NCBI GenBank assembly: GCA_964491625.1
Contig: CAZBIU010000002.1
Coordinates: 1-55,419, forward strand
Direction of reading: 5' to 3'
DNA length: 55,419 nucleotides
Source of the DNA: an uncultured Myxococcales bacterium
GTDB taxonomy: Bacteria; Myxococcota_A; Polyangia; Fen-1088
The position numbers and the translations under genes are program-made. Below, in pieces: positions 44,701 to 55,419 of the stretch (within the stretch, counting starts at the first letter, position 1; the number at the start of each line of letters is the position of its first letter). The notes below the pieces were generated by a model. It ran no database searches and had not been told where the DNA came from. It saw nothing but the letters and a program-made list of their open reading frames with translations.

Positions 44701-45148
44701 CGTCCTCCTCATAGAAGATCCTGGTCGGTCGGGCGACCGGCTCCCGGTCGAAGCGGAACTCCAGGCTCGGGGCATCGCCCGGGGGATGGATTCGGAAGGT
44801 GGTGGAGCTGACCCGTTCCAGCTCGTGCCCACTGCGCATGCAGCAGTCGCGGTCGGCGGCAGGGAACGGGAACTGGATGTTGTCGGCCTCGGGGCCGGCG
44901 AAGGTCAGGCCGTCCAGGTCGAAGCGGAGCTCGAAGTCGAGCGAGAACCAGAACCCATGCCCGACGCCACGATCGATCTGGTTGCGATTGCTATCGTAGT
45001 AGCGAGCGCCGGCAAGGAAGATATGCGCTCCCTGAAGCTGGAAATCCGTCACGACCGACGTCTGCGCACCGGTCACGACGTCCACGGGATCGCCCACCAG
45101 GTGGAGGCTGTCCTTCCATGGCAGGCTGCCGCAACACTTGGTGGTCAT
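41795..45148 (-). CDS. Rhs-family T6SS effector: DUF6531-like N-terminus, YD-repeat shell, core with DLDGL cleavage motif, 140-aa unknown C-terminal toxin
   Basis: Start ATG 45146-45148 (MTTKCCGSLPW..VGDPVDVVTGAQ). YD repeats ('YGYDREGRLIEIENAYGGVLRYVYDDSNRV'). Core end 'RFRTYSPELGRYLQSDPAGTEGSLNLYAYTENPLRAVDLDGL'. The longer ORF N-terminus is shadow. Confidence 0.9.
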   Translation of the reverse strand: MTTKCCGSLPWKDSLHLVGDPVDVVTGAQTSVVTDFQLQGAHIFLAGARYYDSNRNQIDRGVGHGFWFSLDFELRFDLDGLTFAGPEADNIQFPFPAADRDCCMRSGHELERVSSTTFRIHPPGDAPSLEFRFDREPVARPTRIFYEEDDPRPPLRLQYDKGLLAAIQVDVSKRVVFEYAGTHLAGAVLLEAGSTNKHRLVRYGYDREGRLIEIENAYGGVLRYVYDDSNRVIQTIDRRGYSFFFEYDKDGRCIHTWGEDGVEEFRLEFKVEEHLTVVTRGDGAVTSYYYDDQKELVQIIDPCGGVTAYLKDEDGRVVKEVDPNGNESEILYDEGDLPYAKLDPFGYPELLEEQENPPPHPLSHELPDTPVEWEHGEWPGPIEVVPADVPLERWLPHWVVDLWGPNPSAALPDPTKVRDVQGLLLREERKDGKSRRWGYDQNGFERWYTDFDGRTTRYENGSWNFLLREIDGQGSVTEYAYTKSEEVSAIVDPGGTRSEYSYDLKDRLVEVRRHGKVRERYVYDAADNLTEKRDGQGRLLLKLAITKGNEIAQRLLGSGDVEDFKYLPNGRLAQAKNQAGTVTFAYDDQGQRTADERDGKGARHRFEADRLAETSVLGRFVTRYIQTDDTTTVVLDPGGQTQRLHLRGPGLVERACSNDVEELSHYDPSGRCLLKAAEGPGLRKTGGWARRFAYSGEGDLVQRDDSLRGTTIFEHDEVHRLSKVRLWDGTAHEYAYDRAGNLLKAPGLSARMQTGNRLLEANDDQFSYDERDNLSQRRGRAGTTKYTYDSRDLLNAIDGPGISYRAVHDGLGRRTRKTISGQTWQYYWDTDRLAAEIFPDGRLRVYVYPDAAALVPILFLEYESVDADPATGKRYHIHTDHLGCPELVLDDAGRAVWRARIDPYGTAQIDVGADFHQPLRWPGHYYDSETGLHDNRFRTYSPELGRYLQSDPAGTEGSLNLYAYTENPLRAVDLDGLKACPRAKAAKKAAKKAKKDAKGKNKEDAKKGGKGKKRGPKTDPKAPHNAKIRAEANKLQRKGNTILAGGGRAKEKLIPTPGGQKDGRRPDILYRTKKGELRGRNVGKVDASGQPVTRERTALADLNGPGGLPTDFVAYNN

Positions 45149-46149
45149 CACGACTCTCCCGCCGGGGCCGGAGGGGGGGGCGGACACCCACAGTCCCCGC
45201 CGACTCCCTTCTTGTTGCCGCCACCGCCCTTGCCGCTCAACTTTTTCGCCAGCCCCTTCAGCTTGTTCTTCAGCCACTTCGCGATGGCGTCGGTGGCGGG
45301 CACGGGCACGCCGGCGACCAGCACGGTGGGCGCGCCCATCATCACGAAGCCGGGCAGCTTGGGCGGAATCGCCGGGTCCGAGCCCATCATGGCACTGAGC
45401 GCGGCGGCGATGGCGTCGGCCACGGTTTGCGCCGCGGTCATGGACGCTGCCAGCACCTGGGCCGCTGCCATGGCCGCGGCGCCTTCCGTCTGGCTCGCGG
45501 CGGTGTCGGCCGCGCCCTCGAGCCCCTCGACCAGATCGATGCCGGCGCTGAGCAGCGCCAGCGCGCCCATCGGGCTGCGCGGCTTGCCCGGCGAGCACAC
45601 CGTGCACATGTCGGTCATGCGCGCGGCTCGGGCACCGCCGATGAAGACCTTCGACGATCCCAAGAACACCGTAAAATACGGCGCAAGGCCACCGCAGGTA
45701 GGCGCCATGCCCAAATCGCCCACGCGCGCTGCGGGCATGCCGCCCACCAGAACCCGCACGCAGGTTCCCAGGGTGATGGCGCCCATGCTGGGCAGGGGCA
45801 CGGGCGGCGCGGGGGGAATCAAGCTCGGCGGATGGGCGTGTGCGTGGGGCGCGCCGACGTAGAGCGAACCCAACTGCGCGGCCGGGAACGACGGCAAGAT
45901 GGCCGCAATGGCGTTGGTGGCCACCGCGACGCCGGTCTCGACCAGGTTGGTGTACATCTTCTCGGGCAGGCCCTTCACGGCGTCGATGGCGCCCGATACT
46001 TTTTTCACCGCTCCAATCGGATCCTTCAGGATCTCTTGCGGATGGGTTACCACATCGGCGGCAGCGCTGACCGAATCGGTGGTCGACTTGATGGTCGATT
46101 CCACCGTCTGGCCGAGAGCCGTGAGTCCAGAGTCGACGTAGCCACTCAT
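45148..46149 (-). CDS. PAAR-domain protein with helical N-terminal region and Ala-rich hydrophobic insertion
   Basis: 'HAHAHPP...VLVGGMPAARVGD', 'VFIGGARAARMTD' and, ~85 aa later, 'VLVAGVPVPATD'. The TGA overlaps the Rhs ATG by 1 nt (TGATG). Confidence 0.8.
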   Translation of the reverse strand: MSGYVDSGLTALGQTVESTIKSTTDSVSAAADVVTHPQEILKDPIGAVKKVSGAIDAVKGLPEKMYTNLVETGVAVATNAIAAILPSFPAAQLGSLYVGAPHAHAHPPSLIPPAPPVPLPSMGAITLGTCVRVLVGGMPAARVGDLGMAPTCGGLAPYFTVFLGSSKVFIGGARAARMTDMCTVCSPGKPRSPMGALALLSAGIDLVEGLEGAADTAASQTEGAAAMAAAQVLAASMTAAQTVADAIAAALSAMMGSDPAIPPKLPGFVMMGAPTVLVAGVPVPATDAIAKWLKNKLKGLAKKLSGKGGGGNKKGVGGDCGCPPPPPAPAGES

Positions 46150-47399
46150 GCGGGATAGGGCCTTATGCCTTGCTGTCGCAGCCAGGCGATTTCGGGTTCA
46201 ATCTCACGGCGGCGCGCCGTCAGGTTCGCTTCTTTGTAAAGGCCGTGGATGCGTTCGAGGCAGTCGAGCAGGTGCTCCTTCGACTGGGCATCGCGGGCCA
46301 GGGCCACGCCGGCGTTCCAGCTTTCCCAGGCCGCCTTGGTGTCACCGAGCTTGTGCTTGCAAAACCCCATCTGTTCCAGGCAGCGCAACTGCAGCTCGTC
46401 GTTGCCGACCACCTTGGCCAGCATGGAAAGTCCCTCGTAGTAACCGAAGGCCGACACGAAGTCGCCGGCCAGGCGATGCAAGTTGGCCAGGTTGCCGGTG
46501 ACGTTGATGAGCGACGCGGGATCCTGGGCCTGCACCGCGGGCACCAGGGCCAGCTCGTAGTGGCGCTTCGCCTCTGGCTTGTTCCCCATCCGATCGAACA
46601 CCTCGCCGAGGCCGTTGAGGCTTAAGGCATGCAGGGGCTTGGGTCCGAGTGCCCCGTGGTAGCGAGCGAGCAAGGCGTATTTCTTCGACGCCTCGGGGAA
46701 GCGGCGATACGCCAGATCCATACCGGCCAGCAGCAGCACCGCCTGCATCCGCTGCGGTAAGGGCAGAGCGGCGTCGTTCATTTCGTCTTCCAGCGAGGCC
46801 TGCACCGCGTTTGGTCCCATATCCGGGGCGTAGACCTCGATGGCCCGCTTGGCCTGGGCGGCGGCGGCATAGAGCGGCGCCGGCTGGGCTTCCTCGCGCA
46901 CGAGGATGCGCATGTGGTGACACCAGGGTTGCGGCATTTCGTGCGCGGCCAGCGCGAGAATCAGTTGCGCGAAGTCTTGCGGGTCGCTGATCTTGCTGGG
47001 CAGAAAGCCCGCCACCAGATGAGTGACTTCCAGATCGTCGATAAGAGATCGCGCGAACACCAGCAAAGCCCGAAGGCGATCCACGGGGGGCAGCCTCGGG
47101 TTGCTGATCTCTGCCGGCAGCTCGCCGGGAACCTCGGAGCGGGCCTTGCGCAGCTCGGGCACCAGTACGACGTAGCGCACGCGGAAGGACTCGACCACGG
47201 CCTGGGCGTATTTGCTTGCGCTTTCGAAGGGCTCTTGGAACAGCCAGAAGGCGTCCGCTGACTCTTGCTCGATGCCGTCTAGGGTGGAAACCAGCGGCAG
47301 GAGCTCGGCCGGCCCGGCGCGCACCACCAGCAAGAGCGCCCGGCGCTGCGCCAAGAATGCCTCCAGGCGGAGGCGCATGTCCGCGAAGAGCTTGCGCAT
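46146..47399 (-). CDS. 417-aa protein with unknown N-terminal half and C-terminal TPR half; candidate T6SS adaptor/chaperone
   Basis: Start ATG 47397-47399, 2 nt after the vgrG stop. ATGA overlap with the PAAR gene. TPR-like 'EASKKYALLARYHG...GLGEVFDRMGNKPEAKRHYELAL...GNLANLHRLAGDFVSAFGYYEG'. Confidence 0.75.
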   Translation of the reverse strand: MRKLFADMRLRLEAFLAQRRALLLVVRAGPAELLPLVSTLDGIEQESADAFWLFQEPFESASKYAQAVVESFRVRYVVLVPELRKARSEVPGELPAEISNPRLPPVDRLRALLVFARSLIDDLEVTHLVAGFLPSKISDPQDFAQLILALAAHEMPQPWCHHMRILVREEAQPAPLYAAAAQAKRAIEVYAPDMGPNAVQASLEDEMNDAALPLPQRMQAVLLLAGMDLAYRRFPEASKKYALLARYHGALGPKPLHALSLNGLGEVFDRMGNKPEAKRHYELALVPAVQAQDPASLINVTGNLANLHRLAGDFVSAFGYYEGLSMLAKVVGNDELQLRCLEQMGFCKHKLGDTKAAWESWNAGVALARDAQSKEHLLDCLERIHGLYKEANLTARRREIEPEIAWLRQQGIRPYPA

Positions 47400-47401
47400 G
47401 G

Positions 47402-49753
47402 CTAGCCGATTTTGATGAGCGCCCCGCTGATCTCGTGCATGCCCACCGATGCCGAGGTGACCTTCACGCCGTTGACGGTTGTTCCGGACGGCTCGAAGGC
47501 GGCGTTGTTGTTGGCATTGCCTATCTTGACCTTCACACCCGTGATCTCGATGGTGCCGTCGCTCTTCATCGAGATCGAAGCCGAGCCGCACTTGATGGCC
47601 ACCTCGGAATTGGCGGTGACGGTGGCGGAGCTGCCCGACAGGTTGACCTCGCAGCCACCGTTGTTCACCACGATGTCTTTACCTTTCATAAAGAGGGTGT
47701 TGCCCCCTTGGGTCACCTTGAACTGGGTGTCCGCGGTGGTGTTGTACTCGCCGTGAACCGTGACGGTCTTGTCCGACCCCACCACCTCCAGCGTGTCGCC
47801 TTTCTCGACGGTTTCGGTGCGGCCGGCGTGGTACTTACCGGTGTGCGCGCCGGTGATCTCGTCGAGATTGGTGCCGGTCACCTTCATCTCGCGCTCGGCC
47901 TTGTAGGTCTGGGTTTCTTTCTTGGTGACGGTGGTGCTCTGGGTTCCCGTCACGCTGACCGAGTGATTGCCACCCACGCTGACGCTGCGGTCGGCGCCCA
48001 CCGACGTCGACTGGTTGTGCTTGACCGTCGTCGACATGTCCTTTTCGGCCTGGATGTGCAGCTCTTCCTTGCCCTTCAAGTCCTCGAACCGGATCTCGTT
48101 GAAGTTCTGGTCGGTGCCACCCATGCTGCTGCGGCTCTTGATTCCGCTTTGGGTCTTGTTCTTGGGCAGCGTGTAGGGCGGCATGTTGTCGGTGTTGTAG
48201 ACCCGGCCGGTGATGATAGGTCGGTCGGGATCGCCGTCGAGGAACTCGACGATGACCTCTTGCCCGACGCGCGGGATGTGGATCGCTCCCCACTGCTGGC
48301 CCGCCCAGACTTGTGCTACGCGCACCCAGCAGGAGGCCTTCTGGTGGCGGCGGTGCGACCTGTCCCAGTCGAGCTTCACCTTCACGCGCCCGAGCTTGTC
48401 AGTGTAGATCTCGTCCTTGTCCTTACTGGGTGGCTTTGCGCTCCCGCTTCCGCCCTCCTGCTGATCGCCCTCGCCGTCGTCGTCGTCCTCGTCACCTTCC
48501 CCGACCACGACCGCGGTCTGCGGCCCTTCGATTCTCGGCTTGAAGGCCGTTCGCCGCGGGCGGAATTGCAGCTCGGAATCGAGCAGGTTGTACCGCGCGG
48601 TGAAGGCATCGCCGGCCCCTACGGTGTCGCCGCTTTCGTGCTCGTTGATGGAGATGGAGTACGTCGCCTGGGTGATAAGGTATTTCTTGTCCAGGTCGGC
48701 GTCGCTCCAGAACGGATTGTAGTGCTCGTCAGTGGCTCTGGTCAGCTTCACAAGGTCACCGACGCCAAGACCCAGCGTATTGCCCTCCACCTCGATCACC
48801 GTGTTGGCGGCTTGCTCGGTTTGCATCCGAACCATGGCATCTTGCGATGCCTGCTCTTCCTCGGTCAGACCCCCGGGATAGTCATACGCTTCGAATTTCG
48901 ATCCCGGCTGCTCCTCGCCGCTGACCTGCCATTCGATCTGCGCTTGCTTGGCTCGATTCGTGGTGTAGTCGTAACCCCGCAGAACGCTGAACTTGGAAGG
49001 GTACAGCGCACCGGAAGCGCGCAGCCCCCAGAAGTGCTCACTGACGGTGTTTCGGTCGTCCCGGTTGACCCGGCACAAGACCGAATCGTAGCCCGGAACC
49101 GTGTCGTGGTTGGCCATAAGATTGGCGAGCACCAAGGTGTGTTTGTCGGCTTCGTGGGTGAAGAAGTAGTAGATGCCTTCGTCCTCCAGGAGGCGCTGCA
49201 CGAAGTTGAGGTCCGTCTCTCGATACTGCACGCAGTACCGCCGATCAACGTCCACGTTGGAGTCCGCCGTGATGTCCTTGATCAAGGTGACTTCGCGTTG
49301 CTTGAGGACCTTCTTGACGATGGTGAGGGTGTCCTGGGAAGGCGGGCCGCTTTCGGGGTCAAGCCCGGCATTGCTCGCGTCGTTGAAGATCCGGCAGTTC
49401 TGCGCGTACGCCAGTCGGGCGAGGGTGGGGACCAAGACCACGGCGTACCGGGTGTGGCGCAAGGTCGGGCCCACCTTGGCAAAGTAGGCGACGATGCCGT
49501 TGAAGTACCGGTACTGGTGCTGTGGATCGACGTCGGCGCCGCGGTCGATGCGCACTGTGAGCGGCTTGCCCAAGAGATCGCCGACCGGAATCGCGGCGTT
49601 TTCGGACAGAATGGTCAGGTCGTACCGATAGGGAGCTCCCAGCGCCTCGCGACCCTGAAAGGTTTCGAGGAGCAGGTCGGTCTTAGGCTCGAGGTCTGAG
49701 CTGCTGCCGCTCTTCGGTCCGAGGATGGTGATGTTGCTGGCATTGGCTGGCAT
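47402..49753 (-). CDS. vgrG: type VI secretion spike protein VgrG (TssI)
   Basis: Start ATG 49751-49753 (MPANASN...). 'ETFQGREALGAPYRYDLTILS', 'YCVQYRETDLNFVQRLLEDEGIYYFF', 'NFNEIRFEDLKGKEELHIQAEKD' and a gp5-like beta-helix tail. Confidence 0.92.
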   Translation of the reverse strand: MPANASNITILGPKSGSSSDLEPKTDLLLETFQGREALGAPYRYDLTILSENAAIPVGDLLGKPLTVRIDRGADVDPQHQYRYFNGIVAYFAKVGPTLRHTRYAVVLVPTLARLAYAQNCRIFNDASNAGLDPESGPPSQDTLTIVKKVLKQREVTLIKDITADSNVDVDRRYCVQYRETDLNFVQRLLEDEGIYYFFTHEADKHTLVLANLMANHDTVPGYDSVLCRVNRDDRNTVSEHFWGLRASGALYPSKFSVLRGYDYTTNRAKQAQIEWQVSGEEQPGSKFEAYDYPGGLTEEEQASQDAMVRMQTEQAANTVIEVEGNTLGLGVGDLVKLTRATDEHYNPFWSDADLDKKYLITQATYSISINEHESGDTVGAGDAFTARYNLLDSELQFRPRRTAFKPRIEGPQTAVVVGEGDEDDDDGEGDQQEGGSGSAKPPSKDKDEIYTDKLGRVKVKLDWDRSHRRHQKASCWVRVAQVWAGQQWGAIHIPRVGQEVIVEFLDGDPDRPIITGRVYNTDNMPPYTLPKNKTQSGIKSRSSMGGTDQNFNEIRFEDLKGKEELHIQAEKDMSTTVKHNQSTSVGADRSVSVGGNHSVSVTGTQSTTVTKKETQTYKAEREMKVTGTNLDEITGAHTGKYHAGRTETVEKGDTLEVVGSDKTVTVHGEYNTTADTQFKVTQGGNTLFMKGKDIVVNNGGCEVNLSGSSATVTANSEVAIKCGSASISMKSDGTIEITGVKVKIGNANNNAAFEPSGTTVNGVKVTSASVGMHEISGALIKIG

Positions 49754-49855
49754 CGCAGGTAGTCCTCGGGGCGAAGGCCCCAGTGGGTACTTCGGGAGTG
49801 GATCCTTTGATACAAGGCGCCAGTCTAGCACCACAAAAAGCGCGGTCACGCACGT

Positions 49856-49873
49856 CCTGACGTGCACGTCAGG
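49856..49873. promoter_or_regulatory. perfect 18-bp palindrome CCTGACGTGCACGTCAGG in the divergent vgrG / lipoprotein promoter region
   Basis: Read directly from the sequence. It lies 103 nt upstream of the vgrG ATG and 88 nt upstream of the lipoprotein ATG. Confidence 0.45.
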
Positions 49874-49960
49874 TCCACACGTCATTGTCACTGCAGCCTT
49901 CGCTCGGTACACTGTGACCGCGTTGACGCGGCGACGCTTACGCACCGAAAGGGGAATCGA

Positions 49961-50692
49961 ATGCGCGGTTGCTTGATATTGCTGGTCCCGGCCCTGGCCG
50001 TTGCTTGTTCCAAACCGCTCCCCGAGGATCAGAAGGGATGGGTTGGGTTATGGAAGAACGAGCAGGCCAGCCTTCTTGTCACCGCCGACGGCCGGCTGGT
50101 ATGGCACCGAAGCTCGGGAGGCAGCGACAAGTCGCTCTCGGCACCTATCCAGGAGATCGGCCAGCGCAAGATTGTCGCGGGCGCCTGGTTCCTGAAGACC
50201 ACCTTCGACGTGGCCCAGCCGCCCAAGCAAAGCGATGACGGATTCTGGACGGTGACCGTGGACGGACAGGAGCTGTTCAAGACCGACAAGCTCGGCCGGG
50301 ATCCTCGCGCGACCACGGTTCCGCCTCTCAATCGACTGCGCGCGCTGGTGGCGGCCGATCTACGGCGCCTGGATCAGGGCATCCGCACCGGTAACTACGC
50401 CGCCTACCTGGCGCAATCCTCGCAGATATTTCAGAGCCAGTTCACCAACGAGAAGCTGCGGCAGGCCTTCCAGACGGCGCACGAGCAGAAGGCCGAGCTA
50501 ACTCCGCTCATGGTGGGTGAGCTGGCGTTGACCTCCGAGCCCACCCTCTCCCAGGAAGGCGAGCTGACGGTGAAGGGCCGATACCCCGACGTCCACGGCC
50601 TGGTGCTGACGGTGGATGCGTCCTACGTCTATGGCCAGGGTGGGTGGAAGACGGTGGGGGTGAATTTCACGATGCTCAAGGCGGTGGAGTAG
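49961..50692 (+). CDS. lipoprotein, function unknown, sitting between the two vgrG islands
   Basis: Start ATG 49961 (MRGCLILLVPALAVACS lipobox). 243 aa. Confidence 0.6.
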   Translation: MRGCLILLVPALAVACSKPLPEDQKGWVGLWKNEQASLLVTADGRLVWHRSSGGSDKSLSAPIQEIGQRKIVAGAWFLKTTFDVAQPPKQSDDGFWTVTVDGQELFKTDKLGRDPRATTVPPLNRLRALVAADLRRLDQGIRTGNYAAYLAQSSQIFQSQFTNEKLRQAFQTAHEQKAELTPLMVGELALTSEPTLSQEGELTVKGRYPDVHGLVLTVDASYVYGQGGWKTVGVNFTMLKAVE

Positions 50693-50714
50693 GTCGAGCC
50701 TAAGGTCGAGCCTA
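50691..50714. repeat. tandem 12-mer AGGTCGAGCCTA x2 filling the gap between two convergent stop codons
   Basis: 50691-50702 is identical to 50703-50714. The plus-gene TAG (50690-50692) and the minus-gene TAG (50712-50714) are both embedded in it. Confidence 0.8.
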
Positions 50715-51818
50715 CCCGCCCAACCAACGAACCAGCGTGAGCGACGGTGCGTAGGTCCAGCCTCCGTCGACCACGGCTTCGACCAACGGGTTTCGCATCT
50801 CGGTCGCGGAGAAGCGGTAGCGGTACGCCTCGGCCAGTTGCCACTTGCCGTCGCGGAATCCGAGCCCCACTGCCGCGTCGCTTTCGTACGCAAAGAAAGT
50901 GATTCCACGCCAGTACGAAAGGTTGGCGAAGAAGCCTGTGAGCCCGGCTCGCCAAGATAGGGAGCGGGATGACTCGATCACCGAGACTCGCGTCCGGTCC
51001 GGGTCAAGCCGCAGCGTCAGCCGCTGTGAAAAACGGATCCGTCCGGCCCCCTGTAGCTGCAGCCAGCGCGCATCGGCGTACACCCACTCGGCTTGGAAGA
51101 CGCCCGGGCGGATCTCCTCAAGGCGCCAGGGCAGGTCGAGCTGGTTGACTTGCAGGAGTCGTGACTGTAGCTCGTCGGCGGATACCGGGACCGCGTCCGG
51201 ATCAGGTTCAATGCGTCCGGCCCACGACGCACCTCGGAGCATGAAGAAGGCGATGGCCAGCATGTAGATACCGATGCCGATCGCAACGCTTCCAAGGTGC
51301 CGGTCGAACAATTCGAACAGCGGGTCGATGTGTGGGTTCTTGGTCACAACCGCAAGGTGTGCCAGCCGGCGATCGACCGCTTCACGATCCGCCGCCTCCA
51401 CACCGATTGCGACGCGGTCGATACGCAGCCAGGCCACGGCCCTGCCGCTTGCGGAGTTGAAGAAGCGGGTTATCGAAACCTTGGCGTTTGTCTCACTGAG
51501 TGACCGGGTGGGGGGCGCGCGCCAGATGCCTTCGATGGCCGCCTTCGCCGCCGCGCTCGACGAACGAACCAGCACGGTTACTGTCGAACCGTCGTCGAAG
51601 CGCTGCACCGACGAGCCTCCGCGTGGGAGGAGCTCGGGGTGGACGGTGTACGGCGCGGGCCCGACAGCGAAGTCCAGACCCACCAGGGCGAAGGGCAAAA
51701 GAAACAAGCCGAATGTGATGCTGAAATAGATTGCGACACGGGACAGGCGTGGCCCCAAGCTCCGGGCGCTGCGCGTGGCAAGATCGTGTCCGCCGGGGCC
51801 GAGGTTTATCGCAGACAT
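50712..51818 (-). CDS. two-TM membrane protein, family unknown (last gene of vgrG island 2)
   Basis: TMs 'VAIYFSITFGLFLLPFALVGL' and 'VAIGIGIYMLAIAFFML' flank a ~130-aa loop. ~170-aa C-terminal domain. Starts 27 nt after the upstream stop. Confidence 0.6.
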   Translation of the reverse strand: MSAINLGPGGHDLATRSARSLGPRLSRVAIYFSITFGLFLLPFALVGLDFAVGPAPYTVHPELLPRGGSSVQRFDDGSTVTVLVRSSSAAAKAAIEGIWRAPPTRSLSETNAKVSITRFFNSASGRAVAWLRIDRVAIGVEAADREAVDRRLAHLAVVTKNPHIDPLFELFDRHLGSVAIGIGIYMLAIAFFMLRGASWAGRIEPDPDAVPVSADELQSRLLQVNQLDLPWRLEEIRPGVFQAEWVYADARWLQLQGAGRIRFSQRLTLRLDPDRTRVSVIESSRSLSWRAGLTGFFANLSYWRGITFFAYESDAAVGLGFRDGKWQLAEAYRYRFSATEMRNPLVEAVVDGGWTYAPSLTLVRWLGG

Positions 51819-51845
51819 TGCAGGCCTGCCGGGTTGCAGAATAGG

Positions 51846-52388
51846 TCAGGCCTTCGGCGATTGAGCTGGGTCATCGGTTTGCGCCGGCTCTGCATCGGCG
51901 TTCAAGTCAATGTTCGTGTAGATGGCGGCCCAAGCCATGAACCAAGCGACAGACACAATGAAGGCGGGGATCAGCCAAGTCACGACGATGAGGATGGGCT
52001 CGCGAGGTAGAATGGCCATGATAAGTAGGCCCATACCGATACACCAGCAAGACATTATGCTGGGCCAAAGCCAGAACGTCAGCCAGTCGCCCCTGCGAGC
52101 GGCCCTTCGAAGCGTGTCGATGTTGGCGGTCAGCACAGCCTTGACGCCGATAATCGGCCCCACTGACTGCATATCGCGGCGAACGTAGGGCTCCGTCGTG
52201 GCACCGTAATCGAACATGTCCCGGGTCTCCTGCTCGCTCATGCGTTCGATCTTGCCCTTCACGTGCTTGAAGAGGACTACAAAGAGGCACACACCCAGCA
52301 GCATGAGAACTGCTCCCGCAACCGCAAGGCACACGGTCGCTGTCCAATCGATGCCGAGCCAGTGAAACCAGACTGAGCTATGGGACAT
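51846..52388 (-). CDS. small polytopic (about 4 TM) membrane protein, family unknown
   Basis: Start at MSHSSVWFHW. TMs 'ATVCLAVAGAVLMLLGVCLFVVLF', 'WLWPSIMSCWCIGMGLLIMAIL' and 'ILIVVTWLIPAFIVSVAWFMAWAAIY'. Confidence 0.6.
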   Translation of the reverse strand: MSHSSVWFHWLGIDWTATVCLAVAGAVLMLLGVCLFVVLFKHVKGKIERMSEQETRDMFDYGATTEPYVRRDMQSVGPIIGVKAVLTANIDTLRRAARRGDWLTFWLWPSIMSCWCIGMGLLIMAILPREPILIVVTWLIPAFIVSVAWFMAWAAIYTNIDLNADAEPAQTDDPAQSPKA

Positions 52389-52421
52389 CGTTGTCCCTCC
52401 GAGGTCCAATACCCACTGCCA

Positions 52422-53489
52422 TCAAGCGATCTCAATCGTGTCGTGTGCGATCTCGAAAACACGTTGCGCCCGCAGAACCGTCAGGGCGTCATTCTCGAAC
52501 AATGGGCTGAGCATCAACAGCGTGATGCTGTATCCGGGTCGTGCGATGAAGCCCATCCGACTCGTGACCTCAGCCTTGGCCAGACGGCCCTTCCCGACGA
52601 AACCGCCCCGCCAACCCGGTACCGCGAGAGATCGAGGATCGTCATCGACGGTGAACGGGCGGGGCGCTTGGGTTGGCGCAAAGCCTGTCTTCTGCAGCTT
52701 CGCCGAGGCTTCTGCGACCATAGCGTCGAGCGCCGGTGGCGGCTGGTTATCGGCAAGCCTCTCGACCTTTGCTTGCACATAGGCGAGCAGGGTCTTGCCG
52801 TAGGCGTCGATGAGTCGGAGGTGGACAGCCGAGATTCCGTCGGAGGCCGAGGTCTGCGACTCGACCGACCAACTTCTTGGGTAGGCCAATTGAAAATCGG
52901 GATTCTCCGCCTTGGCGACCATCCATGGCTCCATCTGGGTGGTCCCGGTACCGTTTTCCACCTGGAACGTATCGTGCGCCACCCAAAAAATCTCCTTGGC
53001 CTCATCCCAATACTTCCGTGCGCACAGACAATTCACGGCAAAGATATTGTGGGCATCAAGGCGGACGCTGGTGCGCCGAACCTCCGGAACGTTGTTGACA
53101 ACGCGTGTGGCGACCACGTCGTAGAACAGCCGAGCCCCTGCAAACCACTTTGCCGAAACCAGATTCCATCCCTCGACGGTCAGGCTCTGCCTGATCCAAG
53201 CGTCGATGGGGATTTCGTATGGCATTGGCGTGACAGTGACCGCGATGACCGGTGCGCCTGGCTGGACCGAGCCAGTCATGAACCCGATACCCCGGGTGGC
53301 GAAGGGCCCACTCGCGACCGGGCCGAATTGCTTGGAATAAGCCCAGGTTCGAGGAACGGCGAGGCTATAGACATAGGTTGGAGGGCCCCCAGCGCTCATC
53401 TTGAGCTTGATGTGGGTCTGCTCCAGTGTTTGCAGTACACGCGGTGCAGTAAACGGAACATCAGGAGGCAATTGATTTGCAGTGGCCAT
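52422..53489 (-). CDS. cytoplasmic protein with two tandem DcrB/PsbP/Eag(DUF1795)-like halves (tentative)
   Basis: Start ATG 53487-53489, 16 nt after the PAAR stop. No signal peptide. 'YVYSLAVPRTWAYS' at about aa 39-52 and 'FQLAYPRSWSVES' at about aa 202-214 each open a ~150-aa beta-rich half. Confidence 0.55.
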   Translation of the reverse strand: MATANQLPPDVPFTAPRVLQTLEQTHIKLKMSAGGPPTYVYSLAVPRTWAYSKQFGPVASGPFATRGIGFMTGSVQPGAPVIAVTVTPMPYEIPIDAWIRQSLTVEGWNLVSAKWFAGARLFYDVVATRVVNNVPEVRRTSVRLDAHNIFAVNCLCARKYWDEAKEIFWVAHDTFQVENGTGTTQMEPWMVAKAENPDFQLAYPRSWSVESQTSASDGISAVHLRLIDAYGKTLLAYVQAKVERLADNQPPPALDAMVAEASAKLQKTGFAPTQAPRPFTVDDDPRSLAVPGWRGGFVGKGRLAKAEVTSRMGFIARPGYSITLLMLSPLFENDALTVLRAQRVFEIAHDTIEIA

Positions 53490-53505
53490 CAGTGCTGTGT
53501 CTCTT

Positions 53506-54708
53506 TCATTTCTTTGAGATATCCACGCCAAAGCCGAGGCCGAGACCCGCGAGGCCAGCGTCGACCTTCGCACCGGCGGTCGCCTCAAAGAGAGTCTTGC
53601 CGTCGTTGATCTTCACACCAGCATGGGCTTCAGCGCCGAGGGTGAGTAGGGCGCCTTCGCCCTTGACGCCGAGACCGACATAGTAGGAGGTGAAGGGAAT
53701 CCGGATGCGGACTTTGAGAGGCAACTCTCCCTTCAGGACCGCAACCTCAATCTCGCCTTTCGCTTGGGCCTTCCCCTTCATCTTGCTCAGGTCAGCCTCG
53801 ACGCCAAGCTCCGCGCCTGCCTTCCCCTTACCAACGTCAGCCGAACCGACCGATTCGAAGATGACCCACGGATCTGACTTATCTCCTTCCGTCTTCGCCC
53901 CGGGCGGAGGTGGTGTTGCTTTTCCTATCATCACCGTGGGACAGCCGATGGCAATAACGTCCGGGCCTCCCGCAGGTTCGACCACGTAGTCCGTGGCTCG
54001 TGCCGCTGGCGAGCCGTTGATCAGAACCGTCGGTTCCCCTGGAAGGGTCGGACCGCCTCCGTGTGGTGTGGCACCGGGCGCAGGGCAGAGGTGCATGTCC
54101 AGACCGGCCCGCCAGGCGGGCACACCTCCGATGAAGACATTCGAGCTACCTGGCCCAGGCGCCAACGGCCCCAGGTGCATCGTAAGATCGGAGATGCGGG
54201 CTGCCATGGGGGCGGTGGGGGCAGGAGGTGGCGCCGGGGGAGGGGGCCCGAAGATCAGATGTTTGATCTTGTCGATGAAATCAACTTGGCCGTGGACCAG
54301 GGATCCTTCGGCCTCGGCGTCGACCACCGTCAACTCTGCGCTCTTCTTGTCGAGATCGTAGGAGGCTTTGAGAGCCTCGACCTTCACCTCGCCCCTCACG
54401 AACTGAATGAATGTCTTGTCGTCTCCAAACTTTCGCGAAACTGCGCCTTCTGCCTTCTTCTCGTAGAAAGGTCCAACCGAGGCCTTCTTTGCAAAGCCGG
54501 GCTTTTTCTCAGGCTCGCCGGGCTTCGGTTTGTCGTCTCCTACGGCCCACAACTCTTTCTTCTTGGTTTCCCACTTCTTCGAATCGGTGGCGCCCGCCTT
54601 CGGGACCTGCCAGCCACCTTCCGACTCCTTGCCTCCCTCGCCTTCCTTCTTGGGTAGCTGGCCTTCCCCTGGCTGGCCTTCTCCCGGCTTATCTTCCTCG
54701 TTCGCCAT
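53506..54708 (-). CDS. PAAR-domain protein with charged/disordered + beta-rich N-terminal region and 129-aa beta-rich, Gly-zipper-ended C-terminal domain
   Basis: 'MAARISDLTMH', 'VFIGGVPAWRAG', 'VLINGSPAARATD' and 'CPTVMIG' form the central PAAR. Tail '...AGAKVDAGLAGLGLGFGVDISKK'. Starts 24 nt after the vgrG2 stop. Confidence 0.8.
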   Translation of the reverse strand: MANEEDKPGEGQPGEGQLPKKEGEGGKESEGGWQVPKAGATDSKKWETKKKELWAVGDDKPKPGEPEKKPGFAKKASVGPFYEKKAEGAVSRKFGDDKTFIQFVRGEVKVEALKASYDLDKKSAELTVVDAEAEGSLVHGQVDFIDKIKHLIFGPPPPAPPPAPTAPMAARISDLTMHLGPLAPGPGSSNVFIGGVPAWRAGLDMHLCPAPGATPHGGGPTLPGEPTVLINGSPAARATDYVVEPAGGPDVIAIGCPTVMIGKATPPPPGAKTEGDKSDPWVIFESVGSADVGKGKAGAELGVEADLSKMKGKAQAKGEIEVAVLKGELPLKVRIRIPFTSYYVGLGVKGEGALLTLGAEAHAGVKINDGKTLFEATAGAKVDAGLAGLGLGFGVDISKK

Positions 54709-54732
54709 GGGTCTTCAAGCTCGCCGCGGCTA

Positions 54733-55419
54733 CTAGTTGATCTTGACCATCGTCCCGGTCACGTCGACCCCGGACGGGCTCGTCTTGACAGTGCCTCCGG
54801 CGACCACCGTCGCCTCCGATGCCCCTTGCACCGTCGCTTTGCCCTTGCCCTCCATCATCGCGTCGGCATTCAGGGTGACGTGGCTTTGGTCCTTTGACGC
54901 CATACTGGCTCCCGCGTCGAGCACAAGGATACTGTTGTCGTTCGAGTTGAGGCAGACGGTCTCGTCGAGGGTCATGAAGGCCCCACCCTTGGCGAGCGCC
55001 TCTATGTCCTCGGTTAGCTCGACCTTCGCGGTTCCTCCAGAGGTTAGGGTGATCGCGTCCGGGGTCATCACGATGGTGCTGTTCTTGCACCGCAAGGTGA
55101 TGGAGGTTGGCGCCGTTATCTCGATCGTCTCGGTGGCGTCAAAGGTGTGCTTGCCCGTGACTTTCGTCACGCTCTGCACTGGGAGCTTCTTTCCCGTCTT
55201 CTCGTCCGAACCCTCGACGGTGATGGTTTGGTTGCCGTGAATGGTAATCCTCTGGTCGCCGCCGACGTGGAGGGTTTGGCTACGCTTCACCAGCGTCGAC
55301 ATATCCCTCTCGGCCTGGACGTGCAGCTCTTCCTTGCCCTTGAGGTCCTCAAAACGGATCTCGTTGAAGTTGCTGGGGGTGCCAGCGTTGGCGCTGCGGC
55401 TCTTGATTCCGCTCTGCGT
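54733..55419 (-). CDS. vgrG: second VgrG (TssI), C-terminal ~228 codons only (5' end outside window)
   Basis: The frame stays open to the window edge. '...QSGIKSRSANAGTPSNFNEIRFEDLKGKEELHVQAERD' parallels VgrG1, followed by a gp5-like beta-helix and '...VDVTGTMVKIN*'. Confidence 0.9.
   Translation of the reverse strand, partial: TQSGIKSRSANAGTPSNFNEIRFEDLKGKEELHVQAERDMSTLVKRSQTLHVGGDQRITIHGNQTITVEGSDEKTGKKLPVQSVTKVTGKHTFDATETIEITAPTSITLRCKNSTIVMTPDAITLTSGGTAKVELTEDIEALAKGGAFMTLDETVCLNSNDNSILVLDAGASMASKDQSHVTLNADAMMEGKGKATVQGASEATVVAGGTVKTSPSGVDVTGTMVKIN

What the first reader, a model, noticed from the sequence alone, without database searches (positions are those of the whole stretch)
50712..55419. 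Orphan T6SS cargo island 2: vgrG2 - extended PAAR - tandem DcrB/Eag-like protein - two membrane proteins
The second operon on the same strand has short gaps (24, 16, 33 and 27 nt). It contains no recognisable enzyme-type toxin. The only cargo candidates are the unknown domains fused to the PAAR protein. It is followed by a cytoplasmic protein and two integral membrane proteins, none of which I can assign to a family. The region from ~51.8 to 53.5 kb is visibly less GC-rich than the flanks. One working model is a membrane-targeting (pore-forming) PAAR-fused effector, a chaperone, and membrane-embedded immunity protein(s). This composition differs from the usual vgrG-adaptor-effector-immunity layout.
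Basis: inference. Interest (0 to 1): 0.75.

Follow-up and report, generated by a model that had tools for sequence, protein, structure and literature searches.

The report
T6SS spike tip with unknown beta-domain
This is a real but uncharacterised type VI secretion "arrow-tip" gene set from an uncultured myxobacterium: the sharp tip protein is embedded in an unknown all-beta domain, is always encoded next to a two-domain partner protein, and is often encoded with a small membrane protein, while the last gene of the operon does not belong to the set.

Summary
On the minus strand lie vgrG2 (3' end), a 400-aa PAAR protein, a 355-aa soluble protein (P3), a 3-TM protein (P4, 180 aa) and a 2-TM protein (P5, 368 aa). 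The gaps are 24, 16, 33 and 27 nt. No enzyme domain is detectable.

Comparative data change the picture:
- The PAAR cone splits one all-beta domain (aa 75-158 plus 276-400, long Gly/Ala-rich hairpins) that has no match in Pfam, NCBIfam or the PDB. This domain occurs only attached to PAAR: 27 representatives among 1.84 billion proteins.
- P3 is a high-confidence tandem PsbP/Mog1/DcrB-fold protein. That fold is shared by Eag chaperones and by the T6SS immunity proteins Tli4 and Tsi3. A P3 homologue follows the PAAR gene in 12 of 12 loci where the downstream gene could be read. Two of these lie in core T6SS clusters of Gemmatimonadota and Planctomycetota.
- P4 is present in 8 of 12 loci.
- P5 is unrelated to the module. 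Its few homologues sit in non-T6SS contexts.

Best reading: a spike-tip module in which P3 is the dedicated cytosolic partner (chaperone-like) of the beta-domain, the beta-domain is a probable membrane-active cargo, and P4 is an optional immunity or accessory protein. Toxicity and pore formation are untested. I class it as a new variant of a known kind, of moderate interest.

The parts
54733..55419 (-). vgrG2, 3' 687 nt (last 228 codons; the gene runs off the window and is 767 aa on the parent contig)
   Evidence: Gp5_trimer_C 3.7e-22 and TIGR03361 C-terminal end. Full gene with Phage_GPD, Phage_base_V and Gp5_trimer_C in L001.
53506..54708 (-). PAAR protein, 400 aa: disordered Lys/Glu/Gly/Pro-rich head, split beta-domain, PAAR cone
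   Evidence: PF05488 50.3 bits. PDB PAAR chains match. About 84 full-length homologue clusters. AF2 model.
54487..54708 (-). aa 1-74: predicted disordered, charged N-terminal region (composition conserved, sequence not)
   Evidence: pLDDT below 50 for aa 1-73. Alignment A2. 18-39% identity between loci.
54235..54486 (-). aa 75-158: N-terminal half of the beta-domain (strands 82-90, 100-118, 123-143, helix 145-153), followed by a Pro-rich linker
   Evidence: AF2 secondary structure, pLDDT 60-82. Conserved in 54 aligned homologues.
53917..54213 (-). aa 166-264: PAAR cone. It begins with AARISDLTMH, contiguous with the rest of the cone.
   Evidence: invariant R171, D174, H178 and others. 59-81% identity across loci.
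53509..53883 (-). aa 276-400: C-terminal half of the beta-domain, with four strands of about 25 residues (282-306, 311-336, 342-367, 372-399) that are Gly/Ala-rich on one face
   Evidence: AF2 pLDDT 83-91. Strand composition. Found only on PAAR proteins: 27 representatives in 1.84e9.
52422..53489 (-). P3, 355 aa, cytoplasmic tandem PsbP/Mog1/DcrB-fold protein; obligate neighbour of the PAAR-beta gene
   Evidence: AF2 pLDDT 90.7, pTM 0.88. Foldseek. 34 homologue clusters. Adjacent to PAAR-beta in every informative locus.
51846..52388 (-). P4, 180 aa, three-TM protein with the conserved motif LRxAARRGDWxTFW before TM2; frequent but not universal member of the module
   Evidence: Hydropathy. Homologues in L007, L009, L011, L012, L013, L015 and L017. 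Alignment A3.
50712..51818 (-). P5, 368 aa, two-TM protein. It is co-oriented and 27 nt downstream of P4, but is probably not part of the T6SS module.
   Evidence: Only 6 clusters. Homologues in L014, L096 and the P0128 locus lack any T6SS neighbour. No homologue in any other PAAR-P3 locus.

Best explanation
This is a T6SS spike-tip module whose conserved core is VgrG, a 'PAAR-beta' protein and P3.

The PAAR cone caps VgrG2. The cone is inserted into a roughly 210-residue all-beta domain built from the protein's N-terminal (aa 75-158) and C-terminal (aa 276-400) halves. That domain is the only candidate cargo.

P3 is a single-chain pair of PsbP/Mog1-fold domains, equivalent in domain count to the Eag chaperone dimer. 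It is made in stoichiometric amounts from the tightly coupled downstream gene. I infer that it binds and shields the beta-domain in the producer's cytoplasm until the tip is loaded.

After firing, the Gly/Ala-rich amphipathic hairpins are proposed to act on the target envelope by membrane insertion or permeabilisation.

P4 is a 3-TM inner-membrane protein with a conserved cytoplasmic loop. It is an optional partner, most simply a membrane-embedded immunity or accessory factor. P5 is a lineage-specific neighbour with no link to the module.

Shown here: gene identities, folds, split-domain architecture, co-occurrence statistics and taxonomic range. Inferred: P3-to-beta-domain binding, chaperone role, membrane activity, and the role of P4.
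For: Architecture:
- PAAR cone at aa 166-264.
- Long-strand beta segments on both sides of the cone, pLDDT 77-91.
- In a permuted relative (P0144, L095) the same beta-domain is one contiguous block inserted before the last PAAR strand: C-half HMM 48-72 bits, PAAR HMM positions 2-78 at aa 2-76. The two halves are therefore one unit.

Exclusivity:
- The C-half finds only 27 representatives in 1.84e9 proteins, all on PAAR proteins or fragments of them.

Obligate pairing with P3:
- A P3 homologue lies immediately downstream of PAAR-beta in the window and in L007, L009, L010, L011, L012, L013, L015, L016, L017, L018 and L019. There is also a 351-aa gene at that position in the P0114 locus.
- This holds across Myxococcota, Gemmatimonadota and Planctomycetota. 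Gaps run from 0 to 36 nt (0 in L019, 16 in the window, 36 in L013).
- The permuted PAAR-beta is followed, with a 7-nt overlap, by a single-domain P3-like protein. It scores 21.2 bits against the P3 HMM, versus a maximum of 4.7 bits in 2000 shuffles.
- The beta-domain and P3 diverge in step: 54/52, 50/48, 49/46 and 31/25 % identity. The PAAR cone stays at 59-81%.

Fold of P3:
- Tandem PsbP/Mog1-like domains, with Foldseek hits to PsbP, SciW, EagT6 and DcrB.
- Eag chaperones are Mog1/PsbP-fold dimers that form a claw around the effector (PMC12881460).
- PsbP/MOG1-like proteins next to T6SS toxins were proposed as adaptors (PMC3482391).
- P3 has no signal peptide or TM segment.

T6SS linkage:
- clpV-vgrG directly upstream in L018 and L019, with a VipA/VipB fusion nearby in L018.
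- tssB, tssC, hcp, tssE and tssF beside the P0114 locus.

P4:
- Present in 8 loci; 3 TM segments; conserved motif.
Against: - Nothing shows that the beta-domain is toxic or membrane-active. Foldseek finds no significant PDB match: best E is 7.6e-3 with TM below 0.15, and the weak hits are outer-membrane barrels with long strands.
- The strands carry many charged residues on both faces, so they are not classical lipid-facing barrel strands.
- Every family member carries the same beta-domain, and the domain never occurs on another delivery scaffold. That is unlike polymorphic toxins and would also fit a structural tip decoration.
- P3 lies downstream of the PAAR gene, which is the usual immunity position. 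It is duplicated in tandem in L009, L011, L015 and L016. Its fold also matches the immunity proteins Tli4 and Tsi3.
- Eag chaperones bind alpha-helical TM domains, and this protein has none.
- P4 is missing from L010, L018, L019 and the P0114 locus. If the beta-domain were an antibacterial membrane toxin, those systems would lack membrane immunity.
- P3 has no sequence similarity to DUF1795.
- The two P3 domains share no detectable sequence similarity with each other.
Confidence: 0.4

Rival explanations
1. Toxin-immunity pair. The beta-domain is a toxin that acts in or from the cytoplasm, and P3 is its cognate cytoplasmic immunity protein. P3 would clamp the toxin between its two PsbP-like domains, as Tli4 clamps Tle4. 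P4 would be an accessory or second immunity factor.
For: - P3 is always the gene directly downstream of the PAAR-beta gene, often translationally coupled.
- P3 is duplicated in tandem in L009, L011, L015 and L016, as immunity genes often are.
- Foldseek aligns both P3 domains collinearly with the two-domain T6SS immunity protein Tli4/TplEi (E 3.5e-5), and single domains with Tsi3.
- The module is complete without P4 in L010, L018, L019 and the P0114 locus, so P3 is the only candidate protector there.
- The beta-domain and P3 diverge in step.
Against: - The beta-domain has no enzymatic signature and no known cytoplasmic-toxin fold.
- Tli4 and Tsi3 are periplasmic proteins, whereas P3 has no export signal.
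- The Tli4 superposition has an rmsd of about 22 Å, so only the domain order matches, not the arrangement.
- All members carry the same 'toxin' with no C-terminal polymorphism, and no orphan P3 genes were seen away from a PAAR-beta gene.
Confidence: 0.25
2. Structural tip rather than weapon. PAAR-beta is the standard, non-toxic PAAR of a particular T6SS lineage. Its beta-domain would help pierce or anchor in the target envelope, or serve as a docking platform for other effectors. P3 would be an assembly chaperone or adaptor, comparable in logic to the Tvp/DUF2169 proteins that stabilise DUF4150/PAAR proteins.
For: - The pair sits directly after clpV-vgrG inside core T6SS clusters in Gemmatimonadota and Planctomycetota, and next to a core cluster in the P0114 locus. 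No P4 or other immunity candidate is present there.
- The beta-domain is invariantly linked to PAAR and is never polymorphic.
- L009, L011 and L015 carry, after a second P3 paralogue and P4, a 263-aa soluble protein plus a 182-aa lipoprotein that look like a separate effector-immunity pair. This fits P3 paralogues acting as adaptors.
- Accessory complexes that stabilise PAAR proteins exist (PMC13373197).
Against: - In the window and several Polyangia loci the module is an auxiliary vgrG island, with lower GC3 than vgrG itself. That is typical of exchangeable cargo.
- P4, a fast-evolving membrane protein (23-39% identity), accompanies it in 8 loci, which is what an immunity gene would look like.
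- Plain PAAR proteins need no 210-residue appendage.
Confidence: 0.25
3. P4 is the real cargo. It would be a small TM-helix effector, like other small membrane-disrupting T6SS toxins. Its helices would be shielded by the Eag-like P3 and carried on the PAAR-beta platform. P5 in the window, or other downstream genes elsewhere, would provide immunity.
For: - Eag-fold chaperones are known to bind TM helices of effectors (PMC12881460).
- P4 has three TM helices and a conserved motif.
- P4 is followed by another membrane protein in the window (P5).
Against: - P3 occurs without P4 in four loci.
- In L013 the operon ends after P4 with no immunity candidate.
- In L007, P4 lies upstream of the PAAR gene.
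- P5 has no T6SS association elsewhere.
- The single-domain P3-like protein in L095 follows the PAAR-beta gene directly; the contig ends about 0.5 kb further on.
Confidence: 0.07

Closest known systems
Specialised PAAR effectors with Eag (DUF1795) chaperones, e.g. Tse6-EagT6 and Rhs1-SciW ('prePAAR' effectors)
   Same: - A PAAR protein carries extra domains on the VgrG tip.
- A dedicated cytoplasmic partner with the Mog1/PsbP-like fold is encoded next to it. Two such domains per complex form the binding unit: an Eag dimer in the known systems, a tandem fusion here.
- Foldseek finds SciW and EagT6.
   Different: - No TM helices in the effector.
- The AARxxDxxxH string is contiguous with the cone rather than a separate prePAAR.
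- The partner gene is downstream, not upstream.
- The partner is a 355-aa single chain with no DUF1795 sequence match.
- The extra domain is all-beta and is split around the PAAR cone.
Tli4 (TplEi) and Tsi3, T6SS immunity proteins
   Same: - PsbP-like domain(s). Tli4 has two domains in the same order as P3 (Foldseek E 3.5e-5 over about 370 columns).
- The gene lies directly downstream of the effector gene.
   Different: - Tli4 and Tsi3 are exported periplasmic proteins that neutralise enzymes (a lipase and a muramidase). P3 has no export signal, and its partner has no enzyme domain.
- The relative domain orientation differs (rmsd about 22 Å).
Tvp / DUF2169 accessory complexes that stabilise DUF4150/PAAR proteins (PMC13373197)
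   Same: The concept of dedicated accessory proteins that are needed to form an effector-loaded VgrG-PAAR spike and are encoded beside vgrG and PAAR.
   Different: Unrelated folds and families (DUF2169, DUF4150). No sequence or structural match here.
Membrane-depolarising or pore-forming T6SS effectors with membrane-protein immunity (own knowledge: VasX/TsiV2, Ssp6/Sip6, Tse4/Tsi4, Tse5-CT)
   Same: No enzyme domain, glycine-rich sequence, and a small multi-TM protein encoded nearby that could act as immunity (P4).
   Different: Those effectors are alpha-helical or glycine-zipper proteins. This domain is predicted to be all-beta, with strands of about 25 residues. No homology was found. Activity is untested.
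MXAN_1813 of Myxococcus xanthus (PAAR plus a myxobacteria-only C-terminal domain, reported antifungal; cited in PMC10433427)
   Same: A myxobacterial PAAR protein with an uncharacterised extension and no known toxin domain.
   Different: No Myxococcus protein appeared among the homologues of the PAAR protein or of P3. It is therefore probably a different extension. The original paper was not available.

Membership tests
T6SS VgrG (TssI) | gp27-like and gp5-like domains (Phage_GPD, Phage_base_V, Gp5 C-terminal beta-helix) | tested here: met
   The window part has Gp5_trimer_C 3.7e-22 and the TIGR03361 C-terminal end. The full 767-aa gene on the parent contig has all three Pfam domains.
T6SS VgrG (TssI) | Belongs to a T6SS rather than an extracellular contractile injection system | tested here: inconclusive
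   Homologous modules lie next to clpV and tssBC in L018 and L019, and next to tssB, tssC, hcp, tssE and tssF in the P0114 locus. No core T6SS gene was examined on the window's own contig. The PAAR cone's nearest non-family relatives are archaeal and Paenibacillus PAARs.
PAAR (PF05488) | PAAR-repeat cone domain above the Pfam gathering score | tested here: met
   50.3 bits against a cut-off of 27. Aligns to the PAAR part of Tre23 (7pq5), to 4jiw and to SalCis10.
prePAAR effectors (Eag-dependent class) | N-terminal prePAAR motif separated from the PAAR by transmembrane domain(s) | tested here: not met
   AARISDLTMH (aa 169-178) is directly contiguous with the cone. No segment reaches the TM hydropathy threshold anywhere in the protein.
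Eag chaperones / DcrB (DUF1795, PF08786) | Sequence match to the family profile | tested here: not met
   No Pfam or NCBIfam hit for P3 at E up to 1. Neither phmmer with P3 nor hmmsearch with the P3 profile finds any Eag, DcrB or PsbP chain in the PDB.
Eag chaperones / DcrB (DUF1795, PF08786) | Mog1p/PsbP-like alpha/beta fold | tested here: met
   AF2 pLDDT 90.7. Foldseek: PsbP 6e-6 (TM to target 0.69), SciW 1.7e-3, EagT6 8e-3, DcrB 1.5e-2.
Eag chaperones / DcrB (DUF1795, PF08786) | Binds and stabilises the cognate effector and is required for its secretion | not testable with these tools
   Only genomic linkage is available: adjacency in all informative loci, and divergence in step with the beta-domain.
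T6SS immunity proteins of the Tli4/Tsi3 type | Exported to the periplasm (signal peptide or lipobox) | tested here: not met
   The P3 N-terminus MATANQLPPDVPFTAPRV has no hydrophobic segment, and no TM-like window is found. Homologues start at the same position.
T6SS immunity proteins of the Tli4/Tsi3 type | Neutralises the adjacent effector | not testable with these tools
   Needs co-expression and competition assays.
Polymorphic toxin C-terminal domains | The same toxin domain is found on different delivery scaffolds, and different toxin domains on the same scaffold | tested here: not met
   The C-half of the beta-domain occurs only on PAAR proteins: 27 representatives in 1.84e9. All of about 84 family members carry the same extension.
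Beta-barrel pore-forming toxins / outer-membrane barrels | Significant structural similarity, or amphipathic strands with a continuous lipid-facing face | tested here: not met
   Best PDB hit has E 7.6e-3 with TM below 0.15. The weak hits are Pla/OmpT, FadL and autotransporter barrels. The strands have charged residues on both faces. This does not exclude a conformational change on membrane contact.

The most novel reading that the evidence does not exclude
The split beta-domain is a new kind of T6SS payload: a PAAR-borne, beta-hairpin membrane-inserting module, either a beta-type pore former or a translocon. It would be kept soluble by a covalently fused, Eag-like 'pseudo-dimer' (P3). As far as I know, this would be the first beta-structured membrane-active T6SS effector, and the first Eag-type chaperone that handles beta-hairpins instead of TM helices. 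The module is old enough to be shared by Myxococcota, Gemmatimonadota and Planctomycetota.
Probability: 0.2. Interest if true: 0.8.

Novelty: new variant of a known kind. Interest (0 to 1): 0.55.

Why it matters
T6SS tips are the main route for 'specialised' effectors, and how such effectors are kept inert and loaded is an active question.

This module adds three unclassified families:
- an all-beta domain wrapped around a PAAR cone;
- a tandem PsbP-fold partner;
- a 3-TM protein.

The genomic linkage is unusually clean: a P3 homologue lies next to the PAAR gene in 12 of 12 loci where the downstream gene could be read, across three phyla, and a further single-domain relative follows the permuted PAAR variant.

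If P3 is a chaperone, the Eag paradigm extends beyond TM helices. If P3 is an immunity protein, it defines a new effector-immunity family. If the beta-domain is structural, it defines a lineage-specific tip architecture. Any of these outcomes can be tested with a handful of constructs.

The analysis also gives a practical correction. P5 should not be treated as immunity. The PAAR-P3 pair, not the five-gene operon, is the unit to study.

Tried and rejected
- Sequence searches of P3 against the PDB, both single sequence and a 31-sequence profile, gave only noise.
- I tested whether P4 plus P5 are a split version of the 603-aa FUSC_2 membrane protein that follows P3 in L007. There is no similarity.
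- I tested whether the 372- and 393-aa genes after P3 in L009 and L011 are P5 homologues. They are not; they are second P3 paralogues.
- I tested whether the two P3 domains are a recognisable sequence duplication. They are not, by HMM or hhalign. Only the predicted structure shows the repeat.
- Foldseek of the PAAR model against the PDB and BFVD gave only the PAAR cone, or insignificant matches to outer-membrane barrels.
- Detection of the N-half of the beta-domain in the permuted variant P0144 was not significant: 6.6 bits against 4.1 bits for the best shuffle. Only the C-half and the PAAR parts are securely mapped there.
- The first metagenome scan with P0144 alone found nothing. The second, with a two-sequence alignment, found one 2.1-kb contig.
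- Liu et al. 2021 on M. xanthus PAAR extensions could not be read.
- PADLOC gave nothing, and PHROGs gave only the PAAR motif.
- The promoter and terminator scans are uninformative for this high-GC organism.
- A prePAAR/TMD reading was rejected, because the motif is contiguous with the cone and there is no TMD.

Full report
**1. What is in the window**

The operon lies on the minus strand:
- the last 228 codons of vgrG2 (54733-55419);
- a 400-aa PAAR protein (53506-54708);
- P3, 355 aa (52422-53489);
- P4, 180 aa (51846-52388);
- P5, 368 aa (50712-51818).

The intergenic gaps are 24, 16, 33 and 27 nt, as reported. Downstream, a convergent lipoprotein-like ORF (49958-50692, + strand) separates this operon from the vgrG1 operon.

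Family searches give the following:
- VgrG is confirmed by Gp5_trimer_C (3.7e-22) and TIGR03361.
- The PAAR cone is confirmed by PF05488 at 50.3 bits (cut-off 27) and by alignment of aa 167-263 to solved PAAR chains.
- Nothing else in the four downstream proteins matches Pfam, NCBIfam, PADLOC, PHROGs or PDB sequences.
- Hydropathy gives three TM segments in P4, two in P5, and none in the PAAR protein or P3.

The GC dip is real but small, about 2 sd below the window mean. Its sharper form is a drop in GC3, from 0.84 in vgrG2 to 0.69-0.735 in PAAR, P3 and P4. The compositional break therefore sits at the vgrG2/PAAR junction.

**2. Origin**

The exact PAAR protein is found on 21 metagenomic contigs, the longest being 74.7 kb (ENA ERZ27245620). 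There vgrG2 is complete at 767 aa, and the five-gene order is identical. Named homologues come from Polyangia, Polyangiaceae and Polyangiales MAGs of the Myxococcota.

**3. The PAAR protein**

About 84 clusters share the full architecture. A 54-sequence alignment shows these elements in order:
- a compositionally conserved, sequence-variable Lys/Glu/Gly/Pro head;
- a conserved beta segment;
- a Pro-rich linker;
- the PAAR cone, which starts with PMAARxxDxTxH;
- a second Pro-rich linker;
- a conserved segment of about 125 residues that contains the motif GELPLKVRxRIPFTxYYxGLGV.

AF2 models aa 1-73 as disordered. It predicts three strands and a helix at aa 82-153, the cone, and then four strands of about 25 residues at aa 282-399. 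pLDDT is 77-91 outside the head. One face of these strands is mostly Gly, Ala or Ser. The other face mixes large hydrophobic and charged residues.

Foldseek finds nothing significant in the PDB or BFVD apart from the cone itself. The weak hits are long-strand outer-membrane barrels.

A phmmer search with aa 276-400 against 1.84 billion representatives returns only 27 proteins. All are C-termini of the same PAAR family, or fragments of it. The exception is a small permuted class (P0143, P0144). In that class PAAR positions 2-78 come first, the beta-domain follows as one block, and the chain ends with a PAAR-like last strand, DKIITGSPNVIIG.

Two conclusions follow. The two "extensions" are halves of one domain that the PAAR cone interrupts. 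That domain exists only on PAAR proteins.

**4. P3**

Only 34 clusters were found among 5.8 billion proteins. The AF2 model built on 31 sequences is confident (pLDDT 90.7, pTM 0.88). It shows two consecutive alpha/beta units, at about aa 26-173 and aa 189-351.

Foldseek results:
- PsbP is the best single-domain match (E 6e-6, TM to target 0.69).
- The two-domain T6SS immunity protein Tli4/TplEi aligns over both domains (E 3.5e-5, but rmsd about 22 Å).
- The Eag chaperones SciW and EagT6, together with DcrB, Tsi3, LpqN and Mog1, follow with weaker scores.

It is not family membership, because there is no DUF1795 sequence signal. The fold does not separate chaperone from immunity. The two domains share no detectable sequence similarity with each other.

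**5. Gene neighbourhoods**

| Locus | Source | Gene order |
|---|---|---|
| L007 | Polyangiaceae MAG | VgrG, 123 aa, P4-like, PAAR, P3, FUSC_2 membrane protein |
| L009 | metagenome contig | VgrG, PAAR, P3a, P3b, P4, 263 aa, 182 aa |
| L011 | metagenome contig (5' end cut inside the PAAR gene) | PAAR, P3a, P3b, P4, 263 aa, 150 aa |
| L015 | uncultured Myxococcales MAG | VgrG, PAAR, P3a, P3b, P4, 263 aa, 182 aa |
| L010 | metagenome contig | VgrG, PAAR, P3, then a convergent gene |
| L012, L017 | Polyangiales | PAAR, P3, P4. No VgrG beside the PAAR gene in L012; in L017 the upstream 799-aa ORF was not identified. |
| L013 | metagenome contig | PAAR, P3, P4, end (no adjacent VgrG) |
| L016 | Polyangia | VgrG, PAAR, P3, start of a second P3; the contig then ends |
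| P0114 locus | metagenome (no DNA held) | tssF, tssE, impE, hcp, tssC, tssB and impA on one strand; VgrG, PAAR and a 351-aa gene on the other |
| L018 | Gemmatimonadota MAG | ClpV, VgrG, DUF6931, PAAR-beta (41% id), P3 (26% id, E 6.5e-28), Ser/Thr kinase; a VipA/VipB fusion lies nearby |
| L019 | Tepidisphaerales, Planctomycetota | ClpV, VgrG, PAAR-beta, P3 (23% id, E 2.8e-21, 0-nt gap) |
| L095 | metagenome contig | permuted PAAR-beta, then, overlapping by 7 nt, a 191-aa protein |

The 191-aa protein in L095 matches the N-terminal domain of the P3 HMM at 21.2 bits. The best of 2000 shuffles scores 4.7 bits.

Counts across these loci:
- A P3 homologue follows PAAR-beta in all 12 loci where the downstream gene could be read (the window plus the 11 full-length loci with DNA).
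- The gene of matching size in the P0114 locus and the single-domain relative in L095 add two more.
- P4 is present in 8 of the 12.
- VgrG is adjacent in most, but not in L012 or L013.

P5 appears nowhere else in these loci. Its family has only 6 clusters. Its homologues in L014, L096 and the P0128 locus have no T6SS neighbours.

Identity to the window proteins across loci is 59-81% for the PAAR cone, 31-54% for the beta-domain, 25-52% for P3 and 23-39% for P4. The beta-domain and P3 track each other closely.

**6. P4**

P4 has TM1 at aa 21-39, followed by a positively charged loop of about 65 residues that ends in the conserved motif LRxAARRGDWxTFWLWP. A TM2/TM3 hairpin at aa 109-150 and an acidic tail follow. 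By the positive-inside rule, the conserved loop and the tail face the cytoplasm; this is my inference. That topology is compatible with a membrane-embedded immunity protein. It would equally suit a membrane anchor or accessory factor.

**7. Interpretation**

The unit under selection is the PAAR-beta and P3 pair, which sits on a VgrG. P4 is a frequent addition, and P5 is a bystander.

I rank four readings:

(a) P3 is a chaperone-like partner of a beta-domain cargo, and P4 is optional immunity (0.40).
- Support: the cytoplasmic location of P3; an Eag-type fold present in two copies per unit; a single-domain relative that pairs with the permuted PAAR; and the literature precedent for PsbP/Mog1-fold T6SS adaptors.

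(b) P3 is a cytoplasmic immunity protein (0.25).
- Support: its position downstream of the PAAR gene; tandem paralogues; Tli4-like two-domain collinearity; and the absence of P4 in four loci.

(c) PAAR-beta is a structural, non-toxic tip, with P3 as an assembly factor or adaptor (0.25).
- Support: its place directly after clpV-vgrG in core clusters of two other phyla; the complete lack of polymorphism; and the restriction of the domain to PAAR proteins.

(d) P4 is the cargo (0.07).
- This is weakened by loci that lack P4 or lack any candidate immunity gene.

Readings (a) and (c) share the claim that P3 is a cytosolic handling factor for the beta-domain, for a combined probability of about 0.65. 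The pore-forming idea remains a hypothesis. The strands are long, amphipathic and Gly/Ala-rich, but they are not lipid-facing in the modelled state, and no structural relative supports a pore.

**8. Comparison with known systems**

The module works most like Eag-dependent specialised PAAR effectors. It fails their defining tests in three ways: it has no prePAAR/TMD arrangement, no DUF1795 sequence match, and the partner gene lies downstream. It resembles Tli4/Tsi3 immunity proteins in fold and gene order but lacks export signals. It resembles the Tvp/DUF2169 systems only in concept. No Myxococcus protein, including the described MXAN_1813 class, appeared among the homologues.

I therefore class it as a new variant of a known kind (a specialised PAAR tip with a dedicated partner), built from three unclassified families.

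**9. Verdict**

Interest is 0.55. The module is genuinely uncharacterised, rare and cleanly delimited, and it has an unusual split-domain PAAR and a cross-phylum distribution. Its function is not established, however, and new T6SS effector and accessory families are reported regularly.

Noticed in passing
window 41795-49945 (- strand): The neighbouring vgrG1 operon is a classical layout: VgrG (783 aa as called), a 417-aa protein with faint TPR hits, a 333-aa PAAR-motif protein, and a large Rhs/YD-repeat protein (DUF6531, RHS, TEN_YD-shell). It contrasts with the enzyme-less operon studied here.
   Followed up: partly
window 49958-50692 (+ strand): A 244-aa ORF with a lipoprotein-type N-terminus (LLVPALAVAC) lies between the two vgrG operons, convergent with P5. 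It has no family match and is conserved in position on all parent contigs.
   Followed up: partly
window 53506-54733 (vgrG2/PAAR junction): Third-position GC falls from 0.84 (vgrG2, vgrG1) to 0.69-0.735 (PAAR, P3, P4) exactly at the junction, and is 0.77 in P5. This suggests the cargo part has a different history or expression level from the vgrG gene.
   Followed up: partly
L020-L094 (genome scan): Outside its own family, the PAAR cone is 55-62% identical to short PAAR proteins of archaea (Methanosarcina, Haloarcula, Methanoperedens), Paenibacillus, Acidobacteriota and others. Many of these lineages are known (own knowledge) for extracellular contractile injection systems rather than T6SS.
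   Followed up: no
P0143, P0144; L095:86-1018 and L095:1012-1587: This is a permuted relative. The beta-domain is inserted as one block before the last PAAR strand. It is followed by an overlapping gene for a 191-aa single-domain P3-like protein (21.2 bits, against at most 4.7 bits in 2000 shuffles).
   Followed up: yes
L009:9119-12171, L011:2238-5365, L015:12366-15306: Three Polyangia loci carry a second P3 paralogue (about 45% identical to the first, with an N-terminal extension). After P4 they also carry a conserved 263-aa soluble protein and a 150- to 182-aa lipoprotein. This may be an additional effector-immunity pair. Neither protein has a family match.
   Followed up: partly
L018:9047-9631 and L018:14049-15683: In the Gemmatimonadota core cluster, a DUF6931 protein (7e-39) sits between vgrG and the PAAR gene. 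A single 544-aa ORF combines VipA-like and VipB-like regions, which looks like a sheath subunit fusion.
   Followed up: no
L014:10001-11788: The P5 homologue in NCBI MAG GCA_025936045.1 is followed by a 225-aa dual-specificity/PTP-like phosphatase. That protein has a weak hit to the polymorphic-toxin-associated Tc-R-P family. No T6SS genes lie within 10 kb.
   Followed up: partly
window 52380-53609 (+ strand): A 409-aa ORF runs antisense to P3 and the end of the PAAR gene, and other long antisense ORFs are present. I treated them as the usual high-GC artefacts, because the minus-strand genes have conserved homologues. The ORF was not searched separately.
   Followed up: no
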